Assembly (NCBI RefSeq): GCF_054482595.1
Contig: NZ_CM137008.1
Strand: one strand, 5' to 3'
DNA length: 64,000 bases
Below are positions 1 to 16,807 of this stretch, in pieces (position 1 is the first letter of the stretch; each line of letters starts with the position of its first letter). The notes beneath the pieces were generated by a model. It ran no database searches. It was given only the letters and a program-made list of their open reading frames with translations, and was not told the origin of the DNA. The position numbers were made by a program, and so were the translations under genes.

Positions 1-431
1 AACTGGCTCGTAAAGAAGATATGCAACTGAGTGCTCATATTAACCCAGAGACATTTGACGTTGAGTTAATTGATGAGAAGGGATCTGTCATTAATCGTAA
101 GTTACTATCTGCCGGTGAAAAGCAGATTTATGCCATTGCTATTCTTGAGGCGCTAGCAAAAACTTCTGGTCGTGATTTGCCGGTGATTATTGATACGCCA
201 TTAGGACGTCTGGATTCACAACATCGGGATAAACTAATTAACCATTATTTCCCATTTGCCAGCCATCAAGTGGTGCTATTGTCTACCGATACGGAAGTGG
301 ATGAACGTTATTTTGTTGACCAATTACGTGATGATATTTCTCATGCTTACGAGATAGTATTTAACACGCATACTAAATCATCAGCGTTGAAGCCCGGTTA
401 TTTCTGGGAATTAACTAAGGAGGCTATCTGA
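1..431 (+). CDS. dndD: DNA phosphorothioation protein DndD, C-terminal part (gene starts upstream of window)
   Basis: Frame is open from position 1; translation contains SMC/ABC-type signature LSAGEKQ followed by D-loop-like IIDTPLGRLD, as remembered for DndD C-termini. Stop TGA at 429-431 overlaps the dndE ATG (TGATG). Confidence 0.75.
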   Translation, partial: LARKEDMQLSAHINPETFDVELIDEKGSVINRKLLSAGEKQIYAIAILEALAKTSGRDLPVIIDTPLGRLDSQHRDKLINHYFPFASHQVVLLSTDTEVDERYFVDQLRDDISHAYEIVFNTHTKSSALKPGYFWELTKEAI

Positions 432-787
432 TGCTCCCGAATCGAATGGTGCTGAATCGTCAGACTGAAGAGCAGCTTAAAAGATTGAAAGGGTATACAG
501 GGATCACACCTAATGTCGCTGCCCGATTGGCATTTTTCCGCTCGGTGGAGAGTGAGTTTCGCTATTCATCAGAACGGGATAATCGGAAACTAGATGGTTC
601 GCTGGTGTTGGATAAGATTACGTGGCTGGGGGAGACATTACAGACTACGGAATTGGTATTGAAGATGCTTTATCCGCAGTTAGCTCAGAAGGATATGGTT
701 AAAGCATGGGCTGCGCATGTGGAGGATGGGATTGCGGCGTTAAGGAATCATAAGAGTCTATTAAACTTTATTAAATCAATAGATTAA
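431..787 (+). CDS. dndE: DNA phosphorothioation protein DndE (118 aa)
   Basis: Small protein directly coupled to dndD; motif GITPNVAARLAFFRS resembles the DndE family; size and position are typical for dndE as last gene of dndBCDE. Confidence 0.7.
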   Translation: MLPNRMVLNRQTEEQLKRLKGYTGITPNVAARLAFFRSVESEFRYSSERDNRKLDGSLVLDKITWLGETLQTTELVLKMLYPQLAQKDMVKAWAAHVEDGIAALRNHKSLLNFIKSID

Positions 788-2006: not shown

Positions 2007-2525
2007 TTATAGCCCCTCACCTGGCTCATCATTAGAACTCATATTCCTTAATTCATCAGACACTAATGAATCTGGAGTTACAGGGATTTTAAAATCAGGC
2101 TTAACAACGGTAATGGAAAACCATAATATTATAGTTATAATAAGTGATGAAATTAACATGAAATTGACGTCATTTTTTAATCCAAAAAATAAAAAAACAA
2201 ATGATATGAACCATAAAAATATTGAACAAGATATTCTAACTTGTTTACGGTGCCTTTCAGATAAAGAAATAGGATTTTCGTTCTCGTCATCTCTGGATAA
2301 ACACTCCGCGGCTAATACGCCCAATGTGGTAATAATAAATGAAAAAATAGAAAAACCCAACTGCGTATTATCTTTTAAAAATAATGGGCCAATCCATATT
2401 CCGCAGGTTGATACAAATAATGTCACCAAAGATATAAAAATAAATTTTGGCTGAATAATTCTTGGATATAATCCTAAGATATCTTTCCACAAGTTCACCC
2501 AATGTATCATATCATTTCTCGACAT
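2007..2525 (-). CDS. Small hydrophobic protein with about 4 predicted transmembrane helices (172 aa), function unknown
   Basis: ORF with four long hydrophobic stretches; its TAA stop (2007-2009) directly abuts the ATG of the DGQHR gene (translational coupling); AGGG Shine-Dalgarno-like sequence upstream; 37 bp downstream of the dptH stop on the same strand. Confidence 0.5.
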   Translation of the reverse strand: MSRNDMIHWVNLWKDILGLYPRIIQPKFIFISLVTLFVSTCGIWIGPLFLKDNTQLGFSIFSFIITTLGVLAAECLSRDDENENPISLSERHRKQVRISCSIFLWFISFVFLFFGLKNDVNFMLISSLIITIILWFSITVVKPDFKIPVTPDSLVSDELRNMSSNDEPGEGL

Positions 2526-2562: not shown

Positions 2563-5500
2563 TCAAAAAACAAGCTCCCAAAACGCTCTATCTCGCATCT
2601 TGCTAACCCGCTTATCCCCATCAACATACAGACTGAAATGTTTTTCAAGCTGCCGAATCTGCCCCATTAACGACTCCTGTTCGCCCTTATCATCCACGTT
2701 GAATACAGCCTTGATATCCGCATTTTTAATTTCGGACACACGATGAATAACCCAGGTTAGAATATATGAAGCGTAATTGTTCTCTCCAGTTTTGAAGTGG
2801 GTAATTTCCTGCGTTGACAGGATCGCTCCAACACCATATTCACGACCTTCCTTAAGGATCTTCCTCAGACTGGAAAAGTCCTGGCGCATAAAGTTATCTG
2901 CCTCATCCACCAGAATCATCTTGGTGAGCTGACGATAATCCCCCTGAATCACTGGCTTGCCGCGTTTTTGCATTTGTGCATAAAACAGATCCAGGGTTAG
3001 CGCAACCACCAGGTTTTGAATCTCTGATGAGTAGCCAGCCAATTCGATAACTGTGACACCATCCACCAGATCATACAGACTCGTCATTTTCTCTGGGTCT
3101 GTTTCAAATATCTGAAACCCAGCTAAGTTATAAAGCGCGGCGTACAATGAGTCTTCTTCTACTTTTTCCTGAGCCAGATATCGCTGCCACACATCTTCTA
3201 TGGTCGGTGCAACACGGTTCCAGGTTGAGCGATCATGAGGCACTATTCCTGCTAATTCATAGCACTCCATGATTAGCGTAACCAGTTTCATACGCTGTTT
3301 CACACCCAGGTTATAGGCTTTCCCCATTGTTTCAGAAAATGCGATTGCGGTATGTCTGGGTAACATGGGCATATCACCAAACAGTGACAAAGGGTTATAA
3401 GGTAGTAACGATAATTGATATTTCTTACCGCCAGTAGCCTTCAGAAAAGCCTCGTCCACATAGTCAGATTTATAATCAAAGATCAGTAAACCAATCGATT
3501 TTCCATCAACGTTACAGGATTGGTTACGCATTAATTGTGTCACCAGCGATTTGGTAAATTGCGTTTTCCCGGTCCCCATCGTACCGATGATGCCTGTGTT
3601 GGTATTCATAAACTTCGTGGTGTTGGTCGGTTCCCAGAATAACGGGGTTTGCCGTGTAGCGTCATGACCAAATAATACTTGTAAGGGTACAGTGCTGACC
3701 TCTGGTGTCGGCTTTGGAATATCAGGTCGTGTGTCTGGCGGTGTCGTTACCTGCACTCCCGATGCTGATGGAGATGGGTGCTCATCACTCTCTGGCTTCA
3801 GACGGTATTTATCTGGTACCCGGTAGCGTTCAGCCAATGGCAATTTACCTTCACGGGTAGTGATTAACGAGGATAGTAATGAATAAGGAATTTCGATCTG
3901 TAAGATATTCGCTGTCGTCTCTTTATAGGAGAGATCGAAGCAAGATCCGCTGTCTACATGTGCAACAACAAAGCCATTAGCATAGTCTTTTAACTCACCC
4001 AACTGATAGTCACCGGTCAACCACCATTCGCGGCGATCCAACAGGGGAGCCAGCTTATCACTGTCCAGCACACCGTACAGCTGAAGTTTCTCTACCTGCA
4101 TCAGCACCTGTCGAATAAAGAGCGCGCGATAAAGTTGCGATGCCAGTGTATGCGGCTCCAGAATATCCTGCTGTAAATAACGTTTAAGCTCAGCAGCCTG
4201 CTGGCCCGCATAGTTGTAATCTGGTCGAGCGCCGGTTTTGACTTCCAGCGGCAGTAAATAGAGACGGTTTTCTTTAAAACCAACAAAGAGCACATCATCA
4301 GAGATTGCGCCTTTACGGTACCCCTGTAGATTTCTTGATAAATCGCTTTCCTTCATCTTTAGCCCGACGTTACCAGATACGCGAATCATTTCGGCTACAG
4401 ATAGCGGTACCCAGCAGATATCAGACTCACTCAGCATGGACTGTACAAATTTATACGCGCCAATGATGCCATATTTCTCTTTGCGCTCTTTTTCACTGGA
4501 GCGCAACATCTTCAGCAACCACTCACCGTTAAAAGCATTAAATTCGGCAAGTAGATGCTGGCTATCAACGGCAGATTGCCCGGACTGGCTTTCGGTCTGG
4601 AGCAGGCGGAGGAATAGATCGACCTGCTTCGTTACCGTCACTGCATCGTAGCCTGCACAACTAGTGTACTGATCGGAATAGTGGATCAGCACAACATCTT
4701 TCTGGCTAGTAAAGAAGTCAAGAGTAACTTTAGGGTCAATAATGGTGGTCCAGAGTGCACTGTTGTAAGAATAATTGAGTAGCTGTTTAAAATTGCCGCT
4801 TACGGCCAATCCAATCCCTTGTCCGTGGTATTGACTGTTGCTCTGACGCGCTGGCTGCCACAGGCAGCCCACTAACCGGGCAAGTCGTAGAGCGCAGTAA
4901 GATTCAGTATCAACATTCCGCAGGCCAAACGCGGTAAAGTAAGCATCCCCCTGTGTTTCAGCTCCTTCTCCGGAAATCAGCCCATGACACAGTACACCGC
5001 TGGCAGCATCCTCAATGCGGATCTGGCGGCAATCCACCGGAGCTGTATTGGTGAAAAACGCCAAATGTGCATAGGCCAATTTGTCGCTTTCTGACGGCAG
5101 GACAAATTTGCTGAACGTTAACCGACTGCGTAACAGGTCAATCAGCATATCGGCCTCAGCTCGCCACGCACCGCGGTTCAGGTCAAGGTCGTTTTTAAGC
5201 TGTTCATAGCTGCCACTCTCGGCAAAGCGATCAAACATATTTGGCAGCAGGCGTTCATCGTAGCAATTTACATGCACCGAAATAGCATGCTCTTTTTCCT
5301 GCTTAAAATATTCCACTAACCCCAGAAACAGTTCTTTCGCTGTTCCCTGATTAATAGCATTAATAATCAATGCATTGTTTCCGGGACTCTGAAATAGCCG
5401 GGCGTAGGCTTCGGTAAATTCATTGAGCTTGTCTTTTACCAAACGTTTTACGTAATCGTGGCTCACCTGGCGCTGGGGAACGACATCGATCCAGAAGCGA

Positions 5501-7638
5501 TTTTCTTCCACCGGCTGCAACTGTGCGTATTCGTGTTCACTGTGGTAAACGAATGGCATCAAGCCGGACACCACCAGACGATCAAGCGTAATGGTCGGTA
5601 GTGTGGCAAATGACGCTGAGTCGTATTGTTCCTGCTCTGCGCAGATAGTTTGTACCAGTTGTAAATGGTAGGCCAACACTAGGGGATGCAACGGGGAGAG
5701 ACGTTCATGACTGTCGACATTACAAATACCCAGATGCAGCAGGCGCTTTTCCTGCGCTGTTAACGCTCTGCTCAACTCGATTTGTTGAAGCGCCTGTTCA
5801 AAGGTCGTCACTATATGGCTTACCAGCGCGCAGTATTCTGCTGACCACGATACTAGGCTAGGTAAAGTACCGCAGCGCTGGTAGTAGAGGAATAATTGGT
5901 CGTAGGCGTTATAGAGATCGGGGTGGATGGCAACGAGTTCATCCAGCGCAAACGCGCTATCGTCATCTCCTGTCCCCAAAAGACGTTGATCAACTAATGA
6001 GGCTTCCAGCGCCAGTAACTGCTGGCGAACACCGACAACCTTGTGTTCGGTATTATCAAGAATGATACGACCCTTCAATCGGTTCCAGGACGCATTCCCG
6101 TCTTCTTTGAACAGTTTATTGAAACGACTCTGGTCAAAAAGTAGCGGTAAGGTTAACCCTTCTTCGGCTCCCGGCCCTTCGATATTGAATGCCAGACAAG
6201 AATCACCTGAAACAAGCTTAAATTGGATCAGATCGCTTTGATTTGCCAGTGTTTCAAAATTCACCAATGCATAATGCTGGCAGTCAATATCACCATTTTC
6301 TTCATCCAGTATACAGACTTGGCTACCCGACTCAGCGATTCGTAGTTCGTTGTCTTCGCGTTGGAGTGTGATTTGTGGTTTACCTGGCTCGATACGGAAA
6401 CAATGCTGAATATCGTCTAGCCAGAATTGTCCTTGTCTGACCAGTAACAGGCGGAACTTGTACTCTTCGGCTGAATTATTGCGATTAGTCAGTTCGAGGC
6501 TAAAGAAGCAGGGATTCCCATCGAAAGGAACCGACGCCATAATACGGGAGCTTTTACCCCCTGCACGACTAATTCGCCAGAAACGCTCTTTTTTTAACTG
6601 ACGATGATGCGCAATTTTTATCTGGTTATCCTGAAGATCGTTGCCCTGAAAGCAAAACTCCAGCTCAGTTTGCGATTGTTCGGGTGGTACCTGTACCAGT
6701 AGGCTGATATCGCGCTTGCCTGCTTTACTTGCGCTTTTCGCCCGTTGCCAAATCACGCCATTTTCGACCGTGATATCATCCAGTACCAGTTTTTGTTCGC
6801 GGTTCTGTTCTTTTTCGTTTAGATAAACAGCGAAATCAAGCTCGCGCCAGTCGTCTTTATCATTGAAATGTTCCTGAATAAATTTGGCGCTGAATTCAGT
6901 TAATACGTTCTCCAGTTGCCCACTGTAGCGTTCAACGCTGTCCTCGATTTGACGAAATAACTTCCTGTTTTCATTCAGTCGGGTATGGAGCTGTTTCTGG
7001 CTAAAATTCAGTAGTTCATCATCTTTAAACAGCGATAGCTCGGAGAAATCCAGATTGCCGTCATCCAGCAGGCGATACAACGACGAGAAGCCAAATACGG
7101 TCGCACCTTCATCCAGTACCGTTGTTCGTTGATCCTTTAATAAGCAACGCGACAACTCTGAACGGTTGTTGTCCGTCGTGATCAACTTTTCCAATTCATG
7201 ACTGAAGGTTTCGGGGTGCCAGATAGCTCCCGGTGCCGCGACGTCTTTTGTGCTGTTAATCAGGGTGTCCAGCATGCTGTTATGAATAATCAGCAGTGCA
7301 GTTTTGGCAAACACCCCGCTGCGGCCAGCAACTTCATCGCGTAAATGGGATATGTAGTTTTCCGTGAATGCTGGCGCTGCGGCTCCGTGCAGCACCGGAA
7401 TAAGCTGAATACCATTACAGGAGAGACAGGCAAGGCGCTGCTCTGGCGCAATTTCCAGATGATTGTCACCTGCCAGGTCAACAAAAGCCTGCCAGAGTTG
7501 TAGAGCATTGTCAGGGTCAGGAGATTTAAACTGGTAACGCTCACCAGGTTGAATAATGCCACTAACCCATTCAATAAAGGTTTCCGCCAGATAGGTTTCA
7601 TACTGTTTTACGGACATACACGGCGTCTCCACTGTCAC
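2563..7638 (-). CDS. dptH: DptH/DndH-like large ATPase/helicase-type protein of the phosphorothioate-dependent restriction module (1691 aa)
   Basis: 5076-bp ORF with Walker A (GIIGTMGTGKTQF) and Walker B-like (ILVDEADNF) motifs; third gene of a three-gene operon adjacent to dndDE; gene sizes match what I recall for dptFGH of Salmonella/E. coli dnd islands. Start may be the downstream ATG at 7617. Confidence 0.75.
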   Translation of the reverse strand: MTVETPCMSVKQYETYLAETFIEWVSGIIQPGERYQFKSPDPDNALQLWQAFVDLAGDNHLEIAPEQRLACLSCNGIQLIPVLHGAAAPAFTENYISHLRDEVAGRSGVFAKTALLIIHNSMLDTLINSTKDVAAPGAIWHPETFSHELEKLITTDNNRSELSRCLLKDQRTTVLDEGATVFGFSSLYRLLDDGNLDFSELSLFKDDELLNFSQKQLHTRLNENRKLFRQIEDSVERYSGQLENVLTEFSAKFIQEHFNDKDDWRELDFAVYLNEKEQNREQKLVLDDITVENGVIWQRAKSASKAGKRDISLLVQVPPEQSQTELEFCFQGNDLQDNQIKIAHHRQLKKERFWRISRAGGKSSRIMASVPFDGNPCFFSLELTNRNNSAEEYKFRLLLVRQGQFWLDDIQHCFRIEPGKPQITLQREDNELRIAESGSQVCILDEENGDIDCQHYALVNFETLANQSDLIQFKLVSGDSCLAFNIEGPGAEEGLTLPLLFDQSRFNKLFKEDGNASWNRLKGRIILDNTEHKVVGVRQQLLALEASLVDQRLLGTGDDDSAFALDELVAIHPDLYNAYDQLFLYYQRCGTLPSLVSWSAEYCALVSHIVTTFEQALQQIELSRALTAQEKRLLHLGICNVDSHERLSPLHPLVLAYHLQLVQTICAEQEQYDSASFATLPTITLDRLVVSGLMPFVYHSEHEYAQLQPVEENRFWIDVVPQRQVSHDYVKRLVKDKLNEFTEAYARLFQSPGNNALIINAINQGTAKELFLGLVEYFKQEKEHAISVHVNCYDERLLPNMFDRFAESGSYEQLKNDLDLNRGAWRAEADMLIDLLRSRLTFSKFVLPSESDKLAYAHLAFFTNTAPVDCRQIRIEDAASGVLCHGLISGEGAETQGDAYFTAFGLRNVDTESYCALRLARLVGCLWQPARQSNSQYHGQGIGLAVSGNFKQLLNYSYNSALWTTIIDPKVTLDFFTSQKDVVLIHYSDQYTSCAGYDAVTVTKQVDLFLRLLQTESQSGQSAVDSQHLLAEFNAFNGEWLLKMLRSSEKERKEKYGIIGAYKFVQSMLSESDICWVPLSVAEMIRVSGNVGLKMKESDLSRNLQGYRKGAISDDVLFVGFKENRLYLLPLEVKTGARPDYNYAGQQAAELKRYLQQDILEPHTLASQLYRALFIRQVLMQVEKLQLYGVLDSDKLAPLLDRREWWLTGDYQLGELKDYANGFVVAHVDSGSCFDLSYKETTANILQIEIPYSLLSSLITTREGKLPLAERYRVPDKYRLKPESDEHPSPSASGVQVTTPPDTRPDIPKPTPEVSTVPLQVLFGHDATRQTPLFWEPTNTTKFMNTNTGIIGTMGTGKTQFTKSLVTQLMRNQSCNVDGKSIGLLIFDYKSDYVDEAFLKATGGKKYQLSLLPYNPLSLFGDMPMLPRHTAIAFSETMGKAYNLGVKQRMKLVTLIMECYELAGIVPHDRSTWNRVAPTIEDVWQRYLAQEKVEEDSLYAALYNLAGFQIFETDPEKMTSLYDLVDGVTVIELAGYSSEIQNLVVALTLDLFYAQMQKRGKPVIQGDYRQLTKMILVDEADNFMRQDFSSLRKILKEGREYGVGAILSTQEITHFKTGENNYASYILTWVIHRVSEIKNADIKAVFNVDDKGEQESLMGQIRQLEKHFSLYVDGDKRVSKMRDRAFWELVF

Positions 7639-8923
7639 TCATTCGCTCCACATTTCCCATACGTTCATAAAACGCTACCAGCGTTTGTGCCGACTGGTTA
7701 TCCAGATAAAATCCGCGCTGTTCAAAGCCGCGCAGCAACTCATGCAGGCGTAGTTTGTCATTTTTACCCACAGTGAGATTGGTCAGCAGCAGCAGACGAT
7801 CCTGATTCAGTACCAGTACTTTTCCCGCCCGACCACGTACCTGAATGAAATCGGTGCAGATCTGGGTTTCAAGCTCGTTGATGTATTTCCGGTTAACTGT
7901 CGCACGATCAGATTTCTTATCCTGAAACTGTTCAACAGCAACGGTTAATAATTGTTTAAAAGCTTCTTCCAGCGTAACGGCTTGCGTATACTTCGATGCC
8001 GAAAGCTCGCGTTTTTCGATAAACTCCTGCAAATAATTATTGAGATCTTGCAGTAATTGAGATGAGTTATCAGAAAAATTTAAGCAATCCTGATAGACCT
8101 GCCAGAGTGGACGCTTCTTATCTCCTTTTATTTGTAGAACTTCCAGCGCGGAGAGTATTGGGAAAAGTTTTTCACTTTGACGAGCGAACCACTTATAACC
8201 AAAGCGTTTTATTTGATCCCGTTCAGAACTGGCTTTTTCAGTGTCGAGAATAAAGAAAAGCGACTTACTTTGTGGCTCGCCGTCCTGCCAGTTGTCCAGA
8301 TTGAGCGCTAGCTGGGCACACCAGCTAAAGGCATATAAACGCAGAGTATTAGTCAGTTCTTGTAACAAATATTGAGGGTGTTCTGCCAAAAACGCCAGAT
8401 CAGACTGAAAACAAGTCACCAGATAGGGAAGGTAGGGTTGTTCTTCAGAGAATGGGCCTTTTCCCAATAACTTTATTTTTTCATTGAGCTTATTTAGCAT
8501 TTGCTGCTCAATGAAGTTCAGCTTATCCTGGATAGGATATTCCAAGCTGAAATCTCCCATTAGATTAGCAAACAGAGTGCCAAGGCGTTTATCGGCCATT
8601 GAAGCGCCACTTATTTTTTCGCCATCAAACTGAGCATGAAATAGTAAAAAAAGCGGAGATACACGAAAGATATCTTCACTGGAAAAATACATCCGTTCCA
8701 GTACAGTCCAGAATGCTGGTTCATCAAGCAATTCTTGCAAATGAGCCTTGCAATCATCGCGAAATTGACTGGGAGTATAGGCATCAATTTTACGCTTCAG
8801 GGCGTAACTAAGCACCAATCCGGTGACAAATTGCCAGTTAATATCATTGTTTTTGTTACGTATCGGCAGATAACTATCCAGTTGATTATTACCTACTTTT
8901 AACGTCGTTGCGATAGGGTACAT
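7598..8923 (-). CDS. dptG: DptG/DndG-like protein (441 aa)
   Basis: 1326-bp ORF between dptF and dptH on the same strand, 4-nt gap from dptF stop; size and context match dptG. Confidence 0.7.
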   Translation of the reverse strand: MYPIATTLKVGNNQLDSYLPIRNKNNDINWQFVTGLVLSYALKRKIDAYTPSQFRDDCKAHLQELLDEPAFWTVLERMYFSSEDIFRVSPLFLLFHAQFDGEKISGASMADKRLGTLFANLMGDFSLEYPIQDKLNFIEQQMLNKLNEKIKLLGKGPFSEEQPYLPYLVTCFQSDLAFLAEHPQYLLQELTNTLRLYAFSWCAQLALNLDNWQDGEPQSKSLFFILDTEKASSERDQIKRFGYKWFARQSEKLFPILSALEVLQIKGDKKRPLWQVYQDCLNFSDNSSQLLQDLNNYLQEFIEKRELSASKYTQAVTLEEAFKQLLTVAVEQFQDKKSDRATVNRKYINELETQICTDFIQVRGRAGKVLVLNQDRLLLLTNLTVGKNDKLRLHELLRGFEQRGFYLDNQSAQTLVAFYERMGNVERMSDSGDAVYVRKTV

Positions 8924-8927
8924 TCCA

Positions 8928-10577
8928 CTAACCCTCCATACCGCTAATGGTGATCATGTCGTCGTCCGCTTTAGCGCGATAAACTCGCCGCCCACCAGCA
9001 TAAAACTTGATTTCGCTGCTGGATTTGGCCTGTTCAGTAATCAAATCAACGATTTCGTCCAGTAGAACAATGGCATTTTTATCGTATTTATTGGGGCGAT
9101 AGCCATTGTTTAATTTGTTCAAAAGTTCAAATAAATTAAGTCCGATACGAACTGGTAACAGAGAGTTTTGCCCAACTTTTAAATGCACGTCGAAGCCAGT
9201 AGGGTGGGCCGTATTTTTATTGCGGATGGCCTCCCAGTCAGGTTTCAATTCGACTGGCGCGGTTATTTTTACCCCACCATATTCACCTAAAAAGAACTCT
9301 TCTTTTTGCATACTCAATTCCGGCGCTTTGCGGTTTGCATAGCGCTGAATACCAGCAATAAGTTCGGATGTATAAAACCGGTTCAGTGCTTTTTTCTGCT
9401 CTGAGTCAGCGATGTAATTTTTGTGCAGATGCCAGATTTCTGAATAATGCTCAAATAAAGATTCATTGAAGAATACGGAAAATTTCTGATGATAATTATT
9501 CCCCAGAGATTCATCCTGCAGCAACCAGAAGAGCCGAATTAATGAAGCCGCATCACCCGGATTAACGCACTGGCGATCAAATCTAATGTGTAATGGCGCG
9601 AGTGCAGCTAAAAAATCATCCAGTTCAGGGTCAACCAGGCCCAATTCGTAGCGCAAAATAAACTGATCGATTTCATAGGTGTGCAGCCTAGCAGGATCAA
9701 AATCAGAAACTTTTTTAATCAGGTCGTTTTCTGCCCCAGTGAAAAGATTATCAAATAAATACCCCGGCCCCATAAGCAAATGATGCAGAAAATCCAATAG
9801 AGTTCGGGTTGTCACAAACTGATCTTTAATCAGGCGGGCCTTAAAGAGCTGAGTGATGAGAACATCCTGAACACCCGGCAGACAAAGTAATTTATAGTTA
9901 GCAACTTCTTTCAGCTCAGGGTTAACGGTCTCATCATGTCGAAAAATAAACTGAAACAAATTACTATCATCATTACGGGTTAAATTATCCAGTAATGTTT
10001 TAATAAACGATGAATACTGTTTTTTTTCATTAAACTGGAATTTAGGGTAATGCTCAAAGTCAAAAAAAGAACAATGCCCACTGCGGTATGGGCGGCTTTC
10101 TTCCTGATCTGCTGACAAGAAAGAATCGATCGCAGTGCGGATCGCCAGATGGCATTCAGCACCTTCTCTGGCAAAATTGGCGAGCATCCCGGTATTGATG
10201 CCTATAAGCAAAGGAGATGAGTATTGGTGATGATTGCTAAATAAATCATTTAAAGCATCAATAGCTGATTGCCGGGGAGCAAAGCTGTGTGTTGCATCCA
10301 GATGAAAACTAAAGCGCTGCTGATAACGAGGGTTTGACTTACAACGGGTCAAAATTTCGGACTTTCCATCACCACTACTGCCACACAAAAAGATGATTTC
10401 ACCGGGCTTAGCAACATCCAGATAACGTTGCAGCTCAGTTTCAATTTCTTGTTTAACAAAGAGTTGTTCTTTTAACTGATCGAACTCATCCTTTTGACGA
10501 TGCGTTACCGTGGTTACGGAAAACGAAGATGACTTCGCAAGTACACCCAACGCTTTACGTAATGTGATTGCGCTCAT
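8928..10577 (-). CDS. dptF: DptF/DndF-like P-loop ATPase (549 aa)
   Basis: 1650-bp ORF with Walker A-like motif FLCGSSGDGKSEI; first gene of the operon, preceded by an AT-rich 5' region. Confidence 0.7.
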   Translation of the reverse strand: MSAITLRKALGVLAKSSSFSVTTVTHRQKDEFDQLKEQLFVKQEIETELQRYLDVAKPGEIIFLCGSSGDGKSEILTRCKSNPRYQQRFSFHLDATHSFAPRQSAIDALNDLFSNHHQYSSPLLIGINTGMLANFAREGAECHLAIRTAIDSFLSADQEESRPYRSGHCSFFDFEHYPKFQFNEKKQYSSFIKTLLDNLTRNDDSNLFQFIFRHDETVNPELKEVANYKLLCLPGVQDVLITQLFKARLIKDQFVTTRTLLDFLHHLLMGPGYLFDNLFTGAENDLIKKVSDFDPARLHTYEIDQFILRYELGLVDPELDDFLAALAPLHIRFDRQCVNPGDAASLIRLFWLLQDESLGNNYHQKFSVFFNESLFEHYSEIWHLHKNYIADSEQKKALNRFYTSELIAGIQRYANRKAPELSMQKEEFFLGEYGGVKITAPVELKPDWEAIRNKNTAHPTGFDVHLKVGQNSLLPVRIGLNLFELLNKLNNGYRPNKYDKNAIVLLDEIVDLITEQAKSSSEIKFYAGGRRVYRAKADDDMITISGMEG

Positions 10578-10794
10578 AACTTCATGTTCTCAAAAGTAGG
10601 ATTATACCTATTCTATAAAAGCTATCCGCTGATATCTATAGGCACTTTGAGACATTTATTACGGGCAATTTTAAAATTGTATCTTTTCCATCCGTACACA
10701 AAACACATCCAGAGATGGCGGGGAAAATCCATCTATCAACCAGTTCCACTTTGGAAATTGCTTGATTAGTAGTATCTTAATCAAACACATACGC

Positions 10795-10975
10795 TAAATA
10801 TTACCCCCGATTGATTTTCGCATAGTCAAACAGCGTAATCGATCTCTCCCTATTCGCATCCAGAAAATCAGCCCACCATACTGCAAATCAGCTCGCGCTC
10901 ATCCAGATGTTCTGCCTTATGGATATACGCCCCCTTACCGATGTGACTCATCTGACGTTCAGCCGCTTTATCTCA
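10795..10975 (-). pseudogene. Decayed 3' fragment of a P4-type integrase gene (remnant of a second int copy)
   Basis: About 180 bp with roughly 75-80 percent identity (by eye) to the 3' end of the intact integrase gene at about 13930-14110 (for example gcatccagaaaatc...ttatggatatacgc...ctcatctgacgttca shared); same orientation; 5' two-thirds of the gene absent. Confidence 0.6.
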
Positions 10976-11072
10976 TGTTGTTCTGGTCTCAATACTTCCA
11001 TGCCGTTGCAATTACCTCTTAAACCAGCCCTTACCATTTTTATGGGTACGATAAGAAAACTTTATCGGGCAC

Positions 11073-11103
11073 GATCGATTTTATCGATCGATTCGATCGA
11101 AAA
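11073..11103 (+). promoter_or_regulatory. Cluster of three GATC sites inside tandem tcgatcgat-like repeats, about 90-115 bp upstream of the outer-membrane protein gene
   Basis: GATC at 11073-11076, 11086-11089 and 11095-11098, each inside CGATCG; read directly from sequence. Regulatory role is hypothetical. Confidence 0.3.
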
Positions 11104-11189
11104 CATTCCTTTTACCTTATCTTTTTCATGGTCTTAGAATGAGCAACCCCATTTATCGTTCGGGGAAAGTGATAGCGGAGATGATTGAA

Positions 11190-11930
11190 ATGAATAAGGT
11201 TATTGCGGTTTCAGCGCTTGCCATGGCAGGCATGTTTTCGACCCAGGCTCTGGCTGATGAAAGCAAAACAGGCTTTTATGTGACCGGTAAAGCAGGTGCT
11301 TCTGTTATGTCACTTGCAGACCAGCGTTTCCTGTCGGGGGATGGAGAGGAAACATCAAAATATAAAGGCGGTGATGGCCATGATACGGTATTCAGTGGCG
11401 GTATCGCGGCCGGTTATGATTTTTACCCGCAGTTCAGTATTCCGGTTCGTACGGAACTGGAGTTTTACGCTCGTGGAAAAGCTGATTCGAAGTATAACGT
11501 AGATAAAGACAGCTGGTCAGGCGGTTACTGGCGTGATGACCTGAAGAATGAGGTGTCAGTCAACACACTGATGCTGAATGCGTACTATGACTTCCGGAAT
11601 GACAGTGCATTCACACCATGGGTATCTGCAGGGATTGGCTACGCCAGAATTCACCAGAAAACAACCGGTATCAGTACCTGGGATTATGGGTACGGAAGCA
11701 GTGGTCGCGAATCGTTGTCACGTTCAGGCTCTGCTGACAACTTCGCATGGAGCCTTGGCGCGGGTGTCCGCTATGACGTAACCCCGGATATCGCTCTGGA
11801 CCTCAGCTATCGCTATCTTGATGCAGGTGATAGCAGTGTGAGTTACAAGGACGAGTGGGGCGATAAATATAAGTCAGAAGTTGATGTTAAAAGTCATGAC
11901 ATCCTGCTTGGTGTGACTTATAACTTCTGA
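11190..11930 (+). CDS. Outer-membrane beta-barrel protein, Hek/Tia/Hra-like adhesin/invasin family suspected (about 246 aa precursor)
   Basis: Start chosen at internal ATG 11190 preceded by GGAG at -12; typical signal peptide MNKVIAVSALAMAGMFSTQALA then DESK; alternating aromatic/glycine-rich beta-strand pattern; C-terminal YNF with terminal Phe typical of OMP beta-barrels. Family name is from memory only. Confidence 0.65.
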   Translation: MNKVIAVSALAMAGMFSTQALADESKTGFYVTGKAGASVMSLADQRFLSGDGEETSKYKGGDGHDTVFSGGIAAGYDFYPQFSIPVRTELEFYARGKADSKYNVDKDSWSGGYWRDDLKNEVSVNTLMLNAYYDFRNDSAFTPWVSAGIGYARIHQKTTGISTWDYGYGSSGRESLSRSGSADNFAWSLGAGVRYDVTPDIALDLSYRYLDAGDSSVSYKDEWGDKYKSEVDVKSHDILLGVTYNF

Positions 11931-12103
11931 CGACACTGCTCCTGAACGATAATACGTATATTTAGCAATTAAGATAATTGCGTATCTTCTGCAATTAAAC
12001 AGAAATACCCTGCAGTCTATTACTGCAGGGTTATCTGTTTCACAGATAATTTCTGATTTTTATTATCCTGTTCTCTTCATCATAATGTTGTCGATATACT
12101 CCG

Positions 12104-13603
12104 ATGAATATCAGAAAACTGTTTTGTCCGGGAAACACACCCCGGATTTTATTGTTTTTATTCTTTTTTGTTGTTTCTGCAATAACCACAATTGCATGCG
12201 GATACACTGAGAAGAATGCCACAGGAAATGTGCTGCTTCTGTTTCTCCTTCTTCTCCTTGCACACAGAAATACCCTCACATCCATTACAGCGCTGTTATT
12301 TCTGTTCTGTTGTGCACTGTATGCGCCTGCGGGTATGACGTACGGTAAAATCAACAACAGTTTTATTGTCGCGTTGCTGCAGACCACGGCTGATGAGGCT
12401 GCAGAGTTTACCGGGATGATTCCTGTTTATCATTTTCTGGTCAGTGCCGCGATTCTGGTATTCATGGTGATTTTCTGGCGGACACACCACCGCGGTCACC
12501 GTAACTGGCTGGCACTGCTGCTATTCGTATTATGCTCTGTAAACAGCTGGCCGTTGCGGATGGTTAAAGGAACTGTTGTGGGGACAACTGACACATTGCG
12601 TGAAATGCAGCGTTATAAACAACTGAGTCAGCACGGGGCTGATAACTGGAAAATCCTGCCGGGTGTGCCGTTGTATGACACGATTGTTATCGTTACTGGT
12701 GAGAGTGTGCGCAGGGATTATATGTCGGTATATGGCTATCCCGTGCCAACCACGCCGTGGCTGAATACTGCTCCCGGTTTATTTATTGACGGCTATACAT
12801 CGACAGCAGCCAGTACCGTACCTTCCCTGAGCCGGACACTGATTTATGACTATGAGCAGAACCCTGACTCCGGCAACAACGTGGTGGCGCTGGCAGCAAA
12901 AGCAGGATACAGCACATGGTGGATATCCAATCAGGGAAAACTGGGAGAGCATGACACACGCATCTCTGTTATTGCTTCTGATGCGGAGCATACCGTTTTC
13001 CTCAAGAAAGGCAGCTTCGCTTCCCGTAAAACGGATGACATGTTGTTGTTACAGGAAACAGAACGTGCGCTGGCGGATAAATCCTCGCCGAAGGTGATTT
13101 TCCTGCACATGATTGGCTCTCATCCGAATCCGTGTGACCGACTTAACTCCTGGCCGAATTATTACCTGGAGCAGTATCCCCGAAAGATTGCCTGTTACCT
13201 CGCCAGCATCAGTAAACTGGATAACTTTCTCGGTCAGCTTGATGGTATCCTTCGCCGGCATTCCCGTCACTTTGCAATGCTTTACTTTTCTGACCATGGG
13301 CTGTCGGTCAGCGACAGTGCTAATCCTGTTCATCATGATGGTCATGTGCAGGGGGGCTACAGCGTTCCCCTGATTATTACCGCCAGTGACATCACGTCTC
13401 ATCAGTCCGTCAGCAGGAAAATCAGTGCCCGTAATTTCGCAGGCATTTTTCAGTGGCTGACCGGTATTCGTACCGAAAATATAACGCCATTCAATCCGCT
13501 GACAGACGAAGATAATGAACCCGTTATGGTTTTTAACGGAGAGAAAAATGTGCCGGCAGACAGTCTGAAACCGCAGCCACTTATTCTTCCGGACCACAGG
13601 TAA
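12104..13603 (+). CDS. Inner-membrane sulfatase-family / phosphoethanolamine transferase-like protein (YhbX/YjgX-like, 499 aa)
   Basis: N-terminal hydrophobic helices followed by a periplasmic domain with motifs IVTGESVRRDY, HMIGSHPNP and LYFSDHG, typical of the alkaline-phosphatase-superfamily PEA transferases; position next to the leuX integrase matches the K-12 yjgX locus. Confidence 0.6.
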   Translation: MNIRKLFCPGNTPRILLFLFFFVVSAITTIACGYTEKNATGNVLLLFLLLLLAHRNTLTSITALLFLFCCALYAPAGMTYGKINNSFIVALLQTTADEAAEFTGMIPVYHFLVSAAILVFMVIFWRTHHRGHRNWLALLLFVLCSVNSWPLRMVKGTVVGTTDTLREMQRYKQLSQHGADNWKILPGVPLYDTIVIVTGESVRRDYMSVYGYPVPTTPWLNTAPGLFIDGYTSTAASTVPSLSRTLIYDYEQNPDSGNNVVALAAKAGYSTWWISNQGKLGEHDTRISVIASDAEHTVFLKKGSFASRKTDDMLLLQETERALADKSSPKVIFLHMIGSHPNPCDRLNSWPNYYLEQYPRKIACYLASISKLDNFLGQLDGILRRHSRHFAMLYFSDHGLSVSDSANPVHHDGHVQGGYSVPLIITASDITSHQSVSRKISARNFAGIFQWLTGIRTENITPFNPLTDEDNEPVMVFNGEKNVPADSLKPQPLILPDHR

Positions 13604-13926
13604 TCATATATGGCAAACTGTAATACAGTCTCTTGTACTGAAAAGGATTCTGTATAGAATAGAACCTGTATTCATATCAGCACAAGGGACCACCAAATCC
13701 CGGCAACATTCCTTACGTCAGTTATCCCGCATCACCCTGTGGGTGCGGGATTTTTTATGATGTTTCTTTTTATTGAATATATATAAATAACGAATAACTG
13801 CGGATTCTGATAATCCACCTGCAGGGAGCAATCCGGTAAACATTTAATACATCAGTTAATATCGTTTTGCCTTTTTAACAAAGAAAATATTCATGGAGTA
13901 AGTTCCCGGGCATTTGCCCGGGATGA

Positions 13927-15192
13927 TTACTGTTTTAATGGATTATTAATCTTTGCATATTCAAATGGACTGATAAATTTTTCTCTGTTTGCATCCAGAA
14001 AATCGGCCCACCATTGTAGCATCAAGCGGCGTTCTTCCAGATGCTCTGCTTTATGGATATACGCGGCCCTCACTGAATTTCGCTCCATGTGGCTCATCTG
14101 ACGTTCAACAGCATCACGAGACCACAAACCTGATTCGACCAATGAACTACAGGCCATTGTTCGAAAGCCATGACCACAAACCTCTACTTTTGTATCATAC
14201 CCCATGACCCGTAACGCACTATTTACCGTATTCTCACTCATGGGTTTGTGCGAATCGTGATCACCAATAAATATCAAGTCATGGGCCCCACAAAACTGTT
14301 TTATCTGCTTTAAAATTGCAAGAGCTTGCGTTGAAAGAGGCACTAGATGCGTTGTACGCATTTTTGAGCCTCTATGGGAATGTTTCACTCCAGGAATAGG
14401 CTCCCGCTCCGGTGGGATAGTCCATATAGACGCTTCGAAATCGATCTCTGACCAACGAGCAAAACGCAGCTCACTGGACCGAATAAAGATCAGCAAAGAG
14501 AGTTCTGTCGCCCATCGGGTTAGCGGCCTACCAGTATAGCTATCTATTTTTGTAAGCAACTCAGGGATGCGCTTTAATTCAAGCGCGGGACGATGTTGTC
14601 GATTACAGGAAGCAACCGCCCCAGCCATCTCTTGTGCCGGGTTATAATCAATTAACCCACTTTGCACTGCATAGCGCATGATGGCTGTAGTGCGCTGCTG
14701 AAGACGAGCGGCCACTTCAAGACGTCCAGACATTTCTACGGCCTTAATGGGTGCTAATAAATCTCGAGTTTTTAACTCAGCGATATTACGTTCACCAAGC
14801 GCTGCAAAAAGATTATCTTCCAGACTTTTTAGCACACGATGGGCGTGATCTTCAGACCACTTTTTATTGGTGCCATGCCACTCAATCGCGACTTCTTTAA
14901 AGGTTCGTGCTTTACTCTGTTCAACCTTATCATTTTTCTTTTTGTCTCCCGGATCGACGCCATTCGCAAGCAGCTTACGCGCCTCGTCACGACGTACTCT
15001 GGCATCCGCTAGTGTGATTTCAGGATAAACCCCAAGTGCCAGCATTTTTTGCTTTCCCTCATAACGGTACTGCAAACGCCAGTACTTAGAACCATTTGGA
15101 TGGACAAGCAGATGCATACCGCCACCATCAGTCAGCTTATATTGCTTATCCGTTGGCTTGGCTGCTCTGACTTTGATATCTGTTAATGCCAT
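13927..15192 (-). CDS. intB: P4-type tyrosine recombinase/integrase (IntB-like, 421 aa)
   Basis: Translation MALTDIKVRAAKPTDKQYKLTDGGGMHLLVHPNGSKYWRLQYRY... is a typical P4-family integrase N-terminus, with C-terminal catalytic region motifs (HGFR, Y near the C-terminus); start is adjacent to the 3' end of tRNA-Leu. Confidence 0.85.
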   Translation of the reverse strand: MALTDIKVRAAKPTDKQYKLTDGGGMHLLVHPNGSKYWRLQYRYEGKQKMLALGVYPEITLADARVRRDEARKLLANGVDPGDKKKNDKVEQSKARTFKEVAIEWHGTNKKWSEDHAHRVLKSLEDNLFAALGERNIAELKTRDLLAPIKAVEMSGRLEVAARLQQRTTAIMRYAVQSGLIDYNPAQEMAGAVASCNRQHRPALELKRIPELLTKIDSYTGRPLTRWATELSLLIFIRSSELRFARWSEIDFEASIWTIPPEREPIPGVKHSHRGSKMRTTHLVPLSTQALAILKQIKQFCGAHDLIFIGDHDSHKPMSENTVNSALRVMGYDTKVEVCGHGFRTMACSSLVESGLWSRDAVERQMSHMERNSVRAAYIHKAEHLEERRLMLQWWADFLDANREKFISPFEYAKINNPLKQ

Positions 15193-15207
15193 GCGTATTC
15201 CCTCCCT

Positions 15208-15265
15208 GTTGGTACAAGCATTATCGAACCGGAAATACCATCATCTGTACCAACATATGTTGGTA
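15208..15265 (-). promoter_or_regulatory. Repeated TGTTGGTA motif: perfect 18-bp palindrome taccaacatatgttggta (15248-15265) plus a third copy (15208-15217) upstream of int; candidate integrase/regulator binding sites in the int promoter-att region
   Basis: Motifs read directly from sequence between the int start codon (15192) and the leuX terminator. Confidence 0.3.
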
Positions 15266-15341
15266 GATGTACGTTGATATCGGTTGACCTTGAGAGAGTT
15301 AATATAGCGGGAAAGGTAGATAAACACTGGATTTCAGGCAT

Positions 15342-15366
15342 AAAAAAAGACCTCAGTTGAGGTCTA
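15342..15366 (-). terminator. Rho-independent terminator of leuX
   Basis: Hairpin agacctcagttgaggtct followed on the minus strand by a U-run (plus-strand A7 at 15342-15348), immediately 3' of the tRNA. Confidence 0.6.
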
Positions 15367-15378
15367 TTTACATACTTT

Positions 15379-15463
15379 TGGTGCCGAAGGCCGGACTCGA
15401 ACCGGCACGTATTTCTACGGTTGATTTTGAATCAACTGCGTCTACCGATTTCGCCACTTCGGC
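15379..15463 (-). tRNA. leuX: tRNA-Leu (anticodon CAA), leuX
   Basis: Minus-strand 85-nt sequence GCCGAAGTGGCGAAATCGGTAGACGCAGTTGATTCAAAATCAACCGTAGAAATACGTGCCGGTTCGAGTCCGGCCTTCGGCACCA, recognised as leuX with encoded CCA; P4-type integrase immediately 3'. Confidence 0.9.
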
Positions 15464-15658: not shown

Positions 15659-16678
15659 ATGTCGATGATAAAAAGCTATGCCGCAAAAGAAGCAGGCGGC
15701 GAATTGGAAGTTTATGAGTACGATCCCGGTGAACTGAAGCCATAAGATGTTGAAGTGCAGGTGGATTACTGCGGGATCTGCCATTCCGATCTGTCGATGA
15801 TCGATAACGAATGGGGATTTTCACAATATCCGCTGGTTGCCGGGCATGAGGTGATTGGGCGCGTGGTGGCACTCGGGAGCGCCGCGCAGGATAAAGGTTT
15901 GCAGGTCGGTCAGCGTGTCGGGATTGGCTGGACGGCGCGTAGCTGTGGTCACTGCGACGCCTGTATTAGCGGTAATCAGATCAACTGCGAGCAAGGTGCG
16001 GTGCCGACGATTATGAATCGCGGTGGCTTTGCCGAGAAGTTACGTGCGGACTGGCAATGGGTGATTCCACTGCCAGAAAATATTGATATCGAGTCCGCCG
16101 GGCCGCTGTTGTGCGGCGGTATCACGGTCTTTAAACCACTGTTGATGCACCATATCACTGCTACCAGCCGCGTTGGGGTAATTGGTATTGGCGGGCTGGG
16201 GCATATCGCTATAAAACTTCTGCACGCAATGGGATGCGAGGTGACGGCCTTTAGTTCTAATCCGGCGAAAGAGCAGGAAGTACTGGCGATGGGTGCCGAT
16301 AAAGTGGTGAATAGCCGCGATCCGCAGGCACTGAAAGCCCTGTCGGGGCAGTTTGATCTCATTATCAATACTGTGAACGTCAGCCTCGACTGGCAGCCTT
16401 ATTTTGAGGCGCTGACCTATGGCGGTAATTTCCATACAGTCGGTGCGGTTCTCACGCCGTTGCCGGTTCCGGCCTTTACGCTGATTGCGGGCGATCGCAG
16501 TGTCTCTGGCTCTGCTACCGGTACACCTTATGAGTTGCGTAAGCTGATGCGCTTTGCCGCCCGCAGCAAGGTTGCGCCGACTACCGAACTGTTCCCGATG
16601 TCGAAAATTAACGACGCCATCCAGCATGTGCGCGACGGTAAGGCGCGTTACCGCGTGGTTCTGAAAGCTGACTTCTGA
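15659..16678 (+). pseudogene. ahr: Zinc-dependent aldehyde reductase Ahr (YjgB) with in-frame TAA at codon 29 (15743-15745)
   Basis: ATG at 15659 gives [28 protein letters not shown] then TAA, then the frame continues [16 protein letters not shown]... through the full MDR-family alcohol dehydrogenase to 16678; the ORF track only picks up from GTG 15755. Confidence 0.65.
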
Positions 16679-16807
16679 TCTCTTTGCCGGGTGCCTGTCG
16701 CCCGGCACTTAAATCTCTTTGGAAGGCGTCTCGCAATCTGCTGAATTTAGCGGTGAAGAGTGCGCAGCCGTTGCCTATACTCCAGGCAGGAAACTGGAGG
16801 AAATCTC

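What the first reader, a model, noticed from the sequence alone, without database searches (positions are those of the whole stretch)
10795..10975. Decayed integrase 3' remnant marks a composite, tandemly accreted leuX island
About 180 bp upstream of the outer-membrane gene is clearly homologous (by eye roughly 75-80 percent identical) to the 3' end of the intact P4-type integrase 3 kb away, in the same orientation, but the rest of the gene is missing. This fits an older leuX-integrated element (carrying dnd-dpt) that lost its integrase when a second element (int + PEA-transferase-like gene + OMP gene) inserted at leuX, followed by deletion. It implies the Dnd/Dpt module was itself once mobile.
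Basis: seen in the sequence. Interest (0 to 1): 0.55.

Follow-up and report, generated by a model that had tools for sequence, protein, structure and literature searches.

The report
Shared integrase stub bordering swappable defence cargo
The roughly 170-bp integrase fragment is real, but it is an old stub found in about a fifth of complete E. coli genomes next to an adhesin-like gene, and different phage-defence gene sets (here Dnd/Dpt) have been joined to it by recombination.

Summary
Window 10794-10966 (minus strand) is a frameshifted remnant of the last ~60 codons of a P4-type integrase. It is 72% identical (79% without gaps; E=1e-20) to the 3' end of the intact integrase 3 kb away, in the same orientation. 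RefSeq already annotates it as an integrase pseudogene.

- Supported: the stop-codon end of the remnant and the 216-bp spacer down to dptF are collinear with strains where a full-length integrase lies directly between leuX and dptF. The dnd/dpt module therefore once had its own integrase. Mosaic dnd islands at the Leu tRNA were already published in 2015.
- Not supported: the truncation did not arise in this island. The same junction (...CATCTGACGTTCA|GCCGCTTTATCTC...) next to the Tia/Hra-like outer-membrane gene matches about 1085 of 5426 complete E. coli genomes. It occurs at leuX, pheV, pheU and selC, with other cargo: Shango, Druantia and several restriction systems. One strain has the identical leuX integrase and head but Shango instead of dnd/dpt.
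- No internal leuX att copy exists.

Homology breakpoints fall inside both integrase 3' ends. This indicates that homologous recombination, not local tandem integration plus deletion, joined the cargo to the head.

The feature itself is ordinary and already annotated. The recombination-joint pattern is modestly interesting.

The parts
10794..10966 (-). Integrase 3' remnant (pseudogene), equivalent to nt ~1086-1266 (aa ~362-421) of a P4-type integrase. It has one frameshift and a 12-bp deletion.
   Evidence: BLASTN E=1e-20; TBLASTN; translations; PGAP pseudogene annotation.
10794..10905 (-). Cargo-linked tail of the remnant. It resembles the integrase type that sits directly next to defence cargo (EC24 and G3/10 type).
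   Evidence: Identity to EC24 is 31/33 and 35/40, and to G3/10 30/33 and 36/40, but only 52-66% to the CRE1493 and STEC313 remnants. Diagnostic sites are given.
10925..10966 (-). Head-linked end of the remnant, up to the truncation junction shared by all islands that carry the outer-membrane gene.
   Evidence: Alignments of five to eleven loci show the same junction ...CATCTGACGTTCA|GCCGCTTTATCTC.... Over 10916-10962, identity is 39/46 to head-linked remnants against 31/47 to EC24.
10578..10793 (.). Spacer between the remnant's stop codon and the dptF start. It travels with dnd/dpt and holds a promoter-like site for dptF at 10638-10610 (minus strand).
   Evidence: It is homologous only to YZMc3-1 (85-92%) and EC24 (77-81%), not to the other remnant-bearing islands or the G3/10 integrase locus compared. 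Promoter scan.
10967..11189 (+). Conserved upstream region of the outer-membrane gene. It includes three GATC sites at 11073-11098 and a promoter-like site at 11111-11140.
   Evidence: 46/48 identity to loci whose outer-membrane gene is only ~76-85% identical; GATC count; promoter scan.
11190..11930 (+). Outer-membrane protein gene of the Tia/Hra/Hek/Hes-like family.
   Evidence: RefSeq annotates it 'outer membrane protein', and ~76%-identical alleles are annotated 'tia'. The NCBIfam hit (adhesin Adr) is weak and below the cut-off.
12104..13603 (+). Phosphoethanolamine-transferase-family gene. It was paired with the outer-membrane gene in every head I inspected, truncated or IS-split in two of them.
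   Evidence: RefSeq annotation. NCBIfam CptA/EptA-family hits are below the cut-offs.
13927..15192 (-). Intact P4-type tyrosine integrase (421 aa). Its last ~130 bp (13927-14058) belong to the shared head block, and the remainder is specific to leuX.
   Evidence: Pfam Arm-DNA-bind_3 + Phage_int_M + Phage_integrase. About 95% identical to the pheV integrase of CRE1493 up to 14058, then about 60%.
15379..15463 (-). tRNA-Leu(CAA) leuX, the island's attachment site.
   Evidence: ARAGORN.
2563..10577 (-). dptH (2563-7638), dptG (7598-8923) and dptF (8928-10577): the phosphorothioate-dependent restriction genes that form the cargo next to the remnant.
   Evidence: RefSeq annotation of identical loci; PADLOC DndF match, E=9e-237.
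431..787 (+). dndE. The 3' end of dndD lies at 21-431, and the rest of dndBCD is beyond the window's left edge.
   Evidence: ORF list; RefSeq annotation.

Best explanation
The fragment is a non-functional stub of a P4-type integrase 3' end. It is one fixed border of a widespread island 'head': tRNA, integrase, phosphoethanolamine-transferase gene, Tia/Hra-like outer-membrane gene, then the stub.

Shown:
- The truncation that made the stub happened once, long ago, because the junction sequence is the same in every island inspected.
- The head is now found at leuX, pheV, pheU and selC.
- A variable slot follows the stub, and in the strains inspected it holds phage-defence systems: Dnd/Dpt here, and Shango, Druantia, type I and NotI-type restriction systems elsewhere.

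Inferred:
- Cargo and head reassort by homologous recombination. The crossovers fall inside the ~170 bp of integrase 3' homology, around the conserved TATATCCATAAA stretch that encodes the catalytic-tyrosine motif YIHK.
- In this window, the stop-proximal tail and the spacer came with dnd/dpt from an island in which a full integrase abutted dptF. The truncated end came with the outer-membrane-gene head.

The stub itself does nothing enzymatic. Its likely role is passive, as a patch of portable homology.
For: - The junction is identical in islands at four tRNA loci that carry six cargo types.
- The junction probe matches 1085 of 5426 genomes, and about 131 have the dnd-type tail.
- STEC313 has the same leuX integrase protein and head but Shango cargo. 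That cargo is 98% identical over 9.1 kb to the pheV cargo of CRE1493.
- Window and CRE1493 are 97-100% identical across the outer-membrane gene, yet only 52-66% identical in the remnant tail. The switch lies near 10905-10925.
- The complementary switch in the intact integrase is at 14058, the equivalent position.
- The tail and spacer are collinear with full-length integrase-dptF arrangements at leuX.
- The remnants carry different frameshifts and stop codons in different strains, so there is no coding constraint.
- Promoter-like sites lie outside the remnant.
- The region just downstream of P4-type integrases is a published defence hotspot (bioRxiv 10.64898/2026.02.27.708500; PMC9122126, listed, abstract only).
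Against: - Only about ten loci were examined by eye. The genome count comes from BLAST summaries, with 40 of 1086 rows seen.
- Strictly diagnostic sites for a head-type start of the remnant are few: one fixed site plus the CACATGG motif.
- No conserved distal flank that could serve as a second homology arm was found among the islands compared.
- The coincidence of the two breakpoints could simply reflect that the YIHK-coding stretch is the only well-conserved patch.
- The direction of each exchange is not resolved, that is, which state is ancestral.
Confidence: 0.75

Rival explanations
1. A leuX-integrated dnd/dpt element was followed by site-specific insertion of a second element (integrase, transferase, outer-membrane gene) at leuX in this lineage. 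A local deletion then removed the inner att site and the 5' 85% of the older integrase.
For: The tail and spacer are of the type natively linked to dptF. Islands with a single integrase between leuX and dptF exist. The geometry (same orientation, remnant distal to the tRNA) is what tandem accretion predicts.
Against: The same truncation junction occurs with non-dnd cargo at leuX, pheV, pheU and selC. About 950 genomes have the junction without the dnd-type tail. There is no leuX 3'-end copy, even allowing 8 mismatches in 30. An event of this kind may still have created the junction in a remote ancestor, but not in this island and not necessarily with dnd/dpt.
Confidence: 0.1
2. Split-integrase (Campbell-type) model. 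A module made of integrase tail, transferase gene and outer-membrane gene, carrying ~170 bp of integrase 3' end, recombined as a circle by a single crossover into the 3' end of the resident integrase of a leuX-int-dptFGH island. Under this model the intact integrase is the dnd island's own 5' part fused to a module-borne 3' end. The remnant is the resident gene's displaced original tail. No second element ever integrated at leuX.
For: The block shared between islands runs from int-equivalent position ~14058 in the intact gene to the equivalent position (~10905-10925) in the remnant. Such complementary breakpoints are what one reciprocal crossover produces. In YZMc3-1 the 5' integrase remnant plus the attL region is 88% identical over 381 bp (including leuX) to the window's integrase 5' region. 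There it is fused to a dnd-type tail that is 89% identical.
Against: A synthetic 'pre-insertion' query (dnd tail joined to the window integrase 5' part) found no contiguous high-identity match among 5426 genomes. YZMc3-1 could equally be a 4.2-kb deletion derivative of a composite like the window. The module encodes no recombinase. At 72% identity between repeats, RecA-dependent exchange would be rare. Breakpoint coincidence may reflect the single conserved motif.
Confidence: 0.3
3. The remnant is retained because it has a function of its own, such as a regulatory region for dptF or the outer-membrane gene, a small protein, or an RNA.
For: It has persisted, at constant length, through divergence of the outer-membrane gene down to about 76% identity. 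The region just beyond the junction is unusually conserved (46/48).
Against: Frameshifts and stop codons differ between alleles. The overlapping plus-strand ORF is not conserved. Promoter-like sites lie in the flanks, not in the remnant. The tail is only 52-66% identical between near-identical heads. No Rfam search or RNA fold was run on the remnant.
Confidence: 0.05

Closest known systems
RefSeq/PGAP pseudogene 'integrase; frameshifted; incomplete; missing N-terminus' (e.g. EC55989_RS29775 in E. coli 55989, D9V55_RS26090 in W2-5)
   Same: The same bases, the same call. The loci are 99.8-100% identical to the window.
   Different: The annotation says nothing about origin, the shared junction or the link to cargo.
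dnd-encoding genomic islands at the Leu tRNA (dndI_I EC55989 and relatives; Ho et al. 2015, PMC4373003)
   Same: The same island. It was described as mosaic and modular. dnd+dpt was treated as a unit specific to dnd-positive strains, the flanking ORFs are shared with dnd-negative strains, and multiple integration or recombination events were inferred.
   Different: The paper's text has no occurrence of 'truncated', 'tandem', 'leuX' or 'direct repeat'. It appears not to describe the remnant, and I found no report of its presence at other tRNA loci or of breakpoints inside integrase 3' ends.
Heads of Tia/Hra/Hes-bearing pathogenicity islands (LAA at pheV, Montero et al. 2017, PMC5539235; the tia island at selC and hek in PAI II at leuX, both from my own knowledge)
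   Same: The arrangement is tRNA, P4-type integrase, ~3 kb, then an Hra-family outer-membrane gene. In LAA the integrase lies 3,342 bp and pheV 4,805 bp from the hes stop codon.
   Different: Those papers treat the adhesin as a virulence gene. They do not describe the integrase stub beyond it or the defence cargo that follows.
Defence hotspot downstream of the integrase in P4-like satellites (Rousset et al. 2022, PMC9122126; bioRxiv 10.64898/2026.02.27.708500) and 'integrase-only' defence islands at tRNA hotspots (Hochhauser et al. 2023, PMC10121019)
   Same: Variable defence systems lie immediately 3' of a P4-type integrase at tRNA sites.
   Different: No psu, delta, sid or primase core genes are annotated in 46 kb of the 55989 island. 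Here the constant border is a truncated integrase stub behind an adhesin/transferase pair, not the working integrase.

Membership tests
P4-type tyrosine integrase (gene remnant) | Sequence homology to the C-terminal catalytic region, including the tyrosine motif (A-Y-I-H-K) | tested here: met
   BLASTN E=1e-20 and TBLASTN to aa 361-416. The remnant reads GAYIHKAEH.
P4-type tyrosine integrase (gene remnant) | Complete ORF with Arm-DNA-bind_3, central and catalytic domains | tested here: not met
   Only the last ~60 codons remain, with a frameshift and a 12-bp deletion. The intact neighbour has all three Pfam domains. The fragment is therefore a pseudogene, not a working integrase.
Tandem (site-specific) accretion of two tRNA-integrated elements | An internal att site, i.e. 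a direct repeat of the tRNA 3' end between the two elements | tested here: not met
   No copy of the leuX 3' end at thresholds from 1 mismatch in 14 bases to 8 in 30, in the 64-kb window or in 46 kb of the 55989 island.
Tandem (site-specific) accretion of two tRNA-integrated elements | A junction created in, and specific to, this island lineage | tested here: not met
   The same junction occurs at leuX, pheV, pheU and selC with other cargo, and the probe matches 1085 genomes.
Tandem (site-specific) accretion of two tRNA-integrated elements | Each cargo block has its own cognate integrase lineage | tested here: met
   The tail and spacer match integrases that directly abut dptF in EC24 and YZMc3-1; FORC_041 has the same int-dptF arrangement with a more divergent spacer.
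P4-like satellite with a defence hotspot | Defence genes immediately downstream of the integrase | tested here: met
   dptFGH-dnd, Shango, Druantia and restriction systems lie next to the remnant or to intact integrases.
P4-like satellite with a defence hotspot | Satellite core genes (psu, delta, sid, alpha primase, cos) | tested here: not met
   None is annotated in 46 kb of the 55989 island. This was checked from annotation only, with no HMM search.
Dnd/Dpt phosphorothioate modification-restriction system | dndBCDE plus dptFGH gene set | tested here: met
   RefSeq annotation of the 99.8-100% identical loci; PADLOC DndF, E=9e-237. Only dndE and the dndD 3' end lie inside the window.
Hra/Tia/Hek/Hes outer-membrane adhesin family | Sequence relatedness to named members | tested here: inconclusive
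   About 76% nucleotide identity to genes that RefSeq names tia. The only NCBIfam hit (Adr adhesin) scores 97 bits against a cut-off of 210. No direct protein comparison with Tia, Hek or Hes was run.

The most novel reading that the evidence does not exclude
The last ~170 bp of P4-type integrase genes act as a portable homology arm. A transferase/adhesin module that carries its own copy of this segment spreads between islands at different tRNA genes by single-crossover insertion into resident integrase genes. Each insertion regenerates a working integrase and leaves a displaced stub. The stub then serves as the fixed border at which whole defence systems (Dnd/Dpt, Shango, Druantia, restriction systems) are exchanged. 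This would give a concrete mechanism for the 'integrase-only' defence islands whose mobility is described as unclear (PMC10121019).
Probability: 0.3. Interest if true: 0.55.

Novelty: already known. Interest (0 to 1): 0.3.

Why it matters
The feature itself, an integrase pseudogene in a mosaic tRNA island, is routine and already in RefSeq. That dnd/dpt rides on mosaic tRNA-Leu islands has been in print since 2015.

What is useful is the correction. The stub does not record how this particular island was built. It is a shared, ancient joint present in roughly 20% of complete E. coli genomes. Next to it, different anti-phage systems are found behind otherwise near-identical heads.

If the recombination-arm reading holds, it helps explain how defence systems move between tRNA islands that carry only an integrase and no other mobility genes. 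It also gives a simple sequence landmark for finding a variable defence slot.

Tried and rejected
- leuX 3'-end copies (att repeats). I scanned the window and 46 kb of the 55989 island at 14-30 nt with 1-8 mismatches and found only leuX itself.
- A conserved distal flank for the cargo slot. BLASTN of the 55989 island against six other islands found shared sequence only in the head.
- The junction outside E. coli. An exact 35-mer gave 0 hits in species-representative genomes. A 20-mer gave one hit in a Ruminiclostridium MAG with no other similarity to the window or to six remnant-bearing loci, so it is a chance match.
- A synthetic 'pre-insertion' gene (dnd tail joined to the window integrase 5' part), searched against 5426 genomes. 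No contiguous high-identity match appeared; the 23 places that cover at least 80% of the query ranked below the listed rows, so they are of lower identity and were not inspected.
- The prediction that the window's integrase 5' part would resemble the integrase abutting dptF in EC24. It does not (60-77% throughout).
- A small gene over the remnant. The plus-strand ORF 10907-11137 is interrupted in homologous loci.
- A promoter or terminator role. Promoter-like sites lie in the flanks and the counts are near the shuffled expectation.
- A chance match is rejected (E=1e-20).

Full report
**1. The observation**

The window carries leuX (tRNA-Leu CAA) at 15379-15463 on the minus strand. Downstream of it on the same strand is an intact 421-aa integrase (13927-15192). 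The integrase has Pfam Arm-DNA-bind_3, Phage_int_M and Phage_integrase domains, which is the P4-type architecture.

BLASTN of 10600-11140 against 13800-15400 gives one significant alignment. It pairs 10810-10962 with 13945-14107 on the same strand: 119/165 identities, E=1e-20. TBLASTN with the integrase protein finds aa 361-416 at 10810-10966 in two frames, and nothing else in the 64 kb.

The minus-strand translations show the integrase C-terminus, including the catalytic-tyrosine motif (GAYIHKAEH). They also show a frameshift and a 12-bp deletion.

RefSeq annotates the same bases as an incomplete, frameshifted integrase pseudogene in strains with 99.8-100% identical loci, for example 55989 and W2-5.

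**2. Surroundings**

Right to left, the layout is:
- ahr and leuX
- integrase
- phosphoethanolamine-transferase-family gene (12104-13603, plus strand)
- outer-membrane protein gene (11190-11930, plus strand)
- the remnant
- a 216-bp spacer
- dptF, dptG and dptH (minus strand)
- a few small genes, then dndE and the end of dndD at the window edge

In 55989 the island continues with dndBCD, small regulatory genes, a Tn10-like tetracycline-resistance segment (tetR(B)/tet(B) flanked by IS4-family copies) and more.

**3. The remnant is not peculiar to this island**

Searches of 5426 complete E. coli genomes show that the remnant together with the outer-membrane gene is widespread, at many levels of divergence. 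This includes alleles annotated tia. I inspected the following loci.

| Strain | tRNA site | Cargo beyond the remnant |
|---|---|---|
| window | leuX | Dnd/Dpt |
| CRE1493 | pheV | three-gene system matching PADLOC SngA/B/C (Shango) |
| STEC313 | leuX | the same Shango system |
| SCU-125 | pheU | NotI-family restriction-modification (tia allele) |
| TA8571 | site not determined | type I restriction-modification plus an AAA ATPase |
| KMi012 | pheV | the same type I system plus AAA ATPase |
| FDAARGOS_1058 | pheV | Druantia druABCDE |
| strain 219 | selC | IS1, a RelB antitoxin and type I restriction-modification |

The first five rows show the full head (tRNA, integrase, transferase, outer-membrane gene, remnant), some with an extra TPR gene. 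In KMi012 the transferase is IS-truncated and a sugar-utilisation block lies between it and the integrase. In TA8571 no integrase or tRNA lay within the 12 kb inspected.

In STEC313 the integrase protein is identical to the window's (WP_001218930.1). The sequence is 100% identical from about 13376 to the end of the alignment just past leuX, and 95-100% across most of the head. Its Shango cargo is 98% identical over 9.1 kb to the pheV cargo of CRE1493.

Alignments show that the point where integrase homology stops is the same in all of these loci...CATCTGACGTTCA|GCCGCTTTATCTC[A/G]TG..., followed by a conserved upstream region of the outer-membrane gene. The Druantia locus has a more diverged version of the same junction.

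A 120-bp probe centred on the junction matches 1085 of 5426 genomes. In 39 of 40 evenly sampled rows the alignment crosses the junction. Only about 131 genomes have the full window-type (dnd) remnant. The truncation was therefore a single, old event, unrelated to the arrival of dnd/dpt at leuX.

**4. What does travel with dnd/dpt**

The spacer and the stop-proximal part of the remnant (10578 to about 10830) are homologous only to other dnd/dpt islands.
- In EC24 an intact 1266-bp integrase lies directly between leuX and dptF.
- In FORC_041 there is a full-length but frameshifted integrase in that position.
- In YZMc3-1 the first 108 bp of an integrase are fused to the last ~40 bp, followed by the same spacer and dptF.

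Identity of the window spacer to YZMc3-1 is 85-92% and to EC24 77-81%. There is no real homology to the islands with other cargo. So the tail of the remnant does descend from an integrase that sat next to dptF.

**5. Breakpoints**

Window and CRE1493 are 97-100% identical over the outer-membrane gene and 91-100% over the transferase gene.

Going left into the remnant, identity falls from 88% (10963-11010) to 83% (10916-10962), then 66%, then 52-59%. The change is near 10905-10925.

Going right into the intact integrase, identity is about 95% from the stop codon to 14058 and about 60% beyond.

Positions 10917-10925 and 14050-14058 are the same motif in the two copies. It is TTTATGGAT on the plus strand, the reverse complement of the codons for Y-I-H-K. 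The block shared between islands is therefore bounded on both sides by integrase 3' sequence, at equivalent positions.

Because the junction has one origin but the tails are of at least three or four types, each continuous with its own cargo, recombination inside the remnant must have occurred.

**6. Mechanism**

Shown:
- one shared truncation
- reassortment of head, tRNA-specific integrase body and cargo
- breakpoints in both integrase 3' ends

Inferred: homologous recombination uses these ~130-170 bp as an arm.

Two variants fit the data. One is repeated double crossovers, for example after transduction or conjugation, with the second arm in flanking DNA. The other is a single Campbell-type crossover of a circular module (integrase tail, transferase, outer-membrane gene) into a resident integrase gene. 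The second variant predicts exactly the complementary breakpoints seen.

I could not find the predicted pre-insertion gene at high identity. The integrase that abuts dptF in EC24 is not close to the window's integrase. I therefore rate the Campbell-type variant at about 0.3.

The remnant has no sign of a function of its own:
- different remnants carry different disabling mutations
- the overlapping ORF is not conserved
- promoter-like sites lie outside it

**7. Comparison with what is known**

- Ho et al. 2015 (PMC4373003) already described dnd islands at the Leu tRNA in 55989, B7A and others. They called them mosaic and modular, with dnd+dpt as a unit and flanking genes shared with dnd-negative strains, and they inferred multiple integration or recombination events. 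Their text appears not to mention the remnant.
- Montero et al. 2017 (PMC5539235) describe the same head at pheV in the LAA island.
- The pheV-island study (PMC11537424) reports modular content with intP4 as the only conserved gene. Its text has no occurrence of 'truncated', 'phosphoethanolamine' or 'defense'.
- Work on defence hotspots places them just downstream of P4-type integrases. It also notes integrase-only defence islands of unclear mobility.

The present locus behaves like such a hotspot, but it lacks annotated satellite core genes. Its constant border is a stub rather than the working integrase.

**8. Verdict**

The tail belonged to a dnd/dpt-linked integrase, and the island is composite.
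- The proposed history is wrong. There was no local tandem insertion and deletion, and the joint is shared and old.
- Interest is low to moderate. The point worth keeping is the recombination-joint pattern next to a variable defence slot.

Noticed in passing
window 11073-11098: Three GATC sites fall within 26 bp (GATCGATTTTATCGATCGATTCGATCGA), about 100 bp upstream of the outer-membrane gene start. The GATC/CGATCG core is kept in all five loci aligned (minor substitutions between sites), including tia-type ones. The window average is 4.8 GATC per kb. This could be a Dam-methylation-sensitive regulatory site, as in pap or agn43 phase variation.
   Followed up: partly
window 15659-16678 (ahr), stop at 15743-15745: The aldehyde reductase gene ahr next to leuX has an in-frame stop at codon 29 (GELKP*DVEV), so it looks like a pseudogene in this strain. 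Other strains have ahr intact (55989, G3/10) or reduced to a fragment (W2-5, FORC_041).
   Followed up: partly
window 16679-16760: yjgR follows ahr directly. The idnK-idnDOTR genes that lie between them in 55989 are absent here, as in G3/10 and STEC313.
   Followed up: no
window 13927-14058 versus 14059-15192: The intact integrase is itself mosaic. Its last ~130 bp and downstream hairpin are about 95% identical to the pheV integrase of CRE1493, while the rest of the gene is only about 60% identical.
   Followed up: yes
window ~11876-12176: A divergent patch (73-79% identity) covers the 3' end of the outer-membrane gene, the intergenic region and the start of the transferase gene. The heads are otherwise 95-100% identical (window against STEC313, CRE1493 and FDAARGOS_1058). 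This suggests another recombination or diversifying patch.
   Followed up: no
window 846-2525: Between dndE and dptH lie a DGQHR-domain ORF (846-1439; shorter here than the 806-846 bp genes annotated in 55989 and W2-5), a 101-aa DndB-like ORF (1701-2006) and an AgrB-family ORF (2007-2525). The first two look like pieces of a disrupted dndB-like gene.
   Followed up: no
L003 (E. coli G3/10) 10912-13260: At leuX, an intact integrase whose 3' end is 90% identical to the remnant is followed directly by a frameshifted 'phosphorothioated DNA-binding restriction endonuclease' gene and a type I restriction subunit. This is a phosphorothioate-sensing nuclease in the same slot where other strains carry the phosphorothioate-making system.
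   Followed up: no
L009 (E. coli YZMc3-1) 9675-10304: The leuX integrase is reduced to its first 108 bp fused to its last ~40 bp, directly upstream of dptF. This is either an internal deletion of a single integrase or a 4.2-kb deletion of a composite head like the window's.
   Followed up: partly
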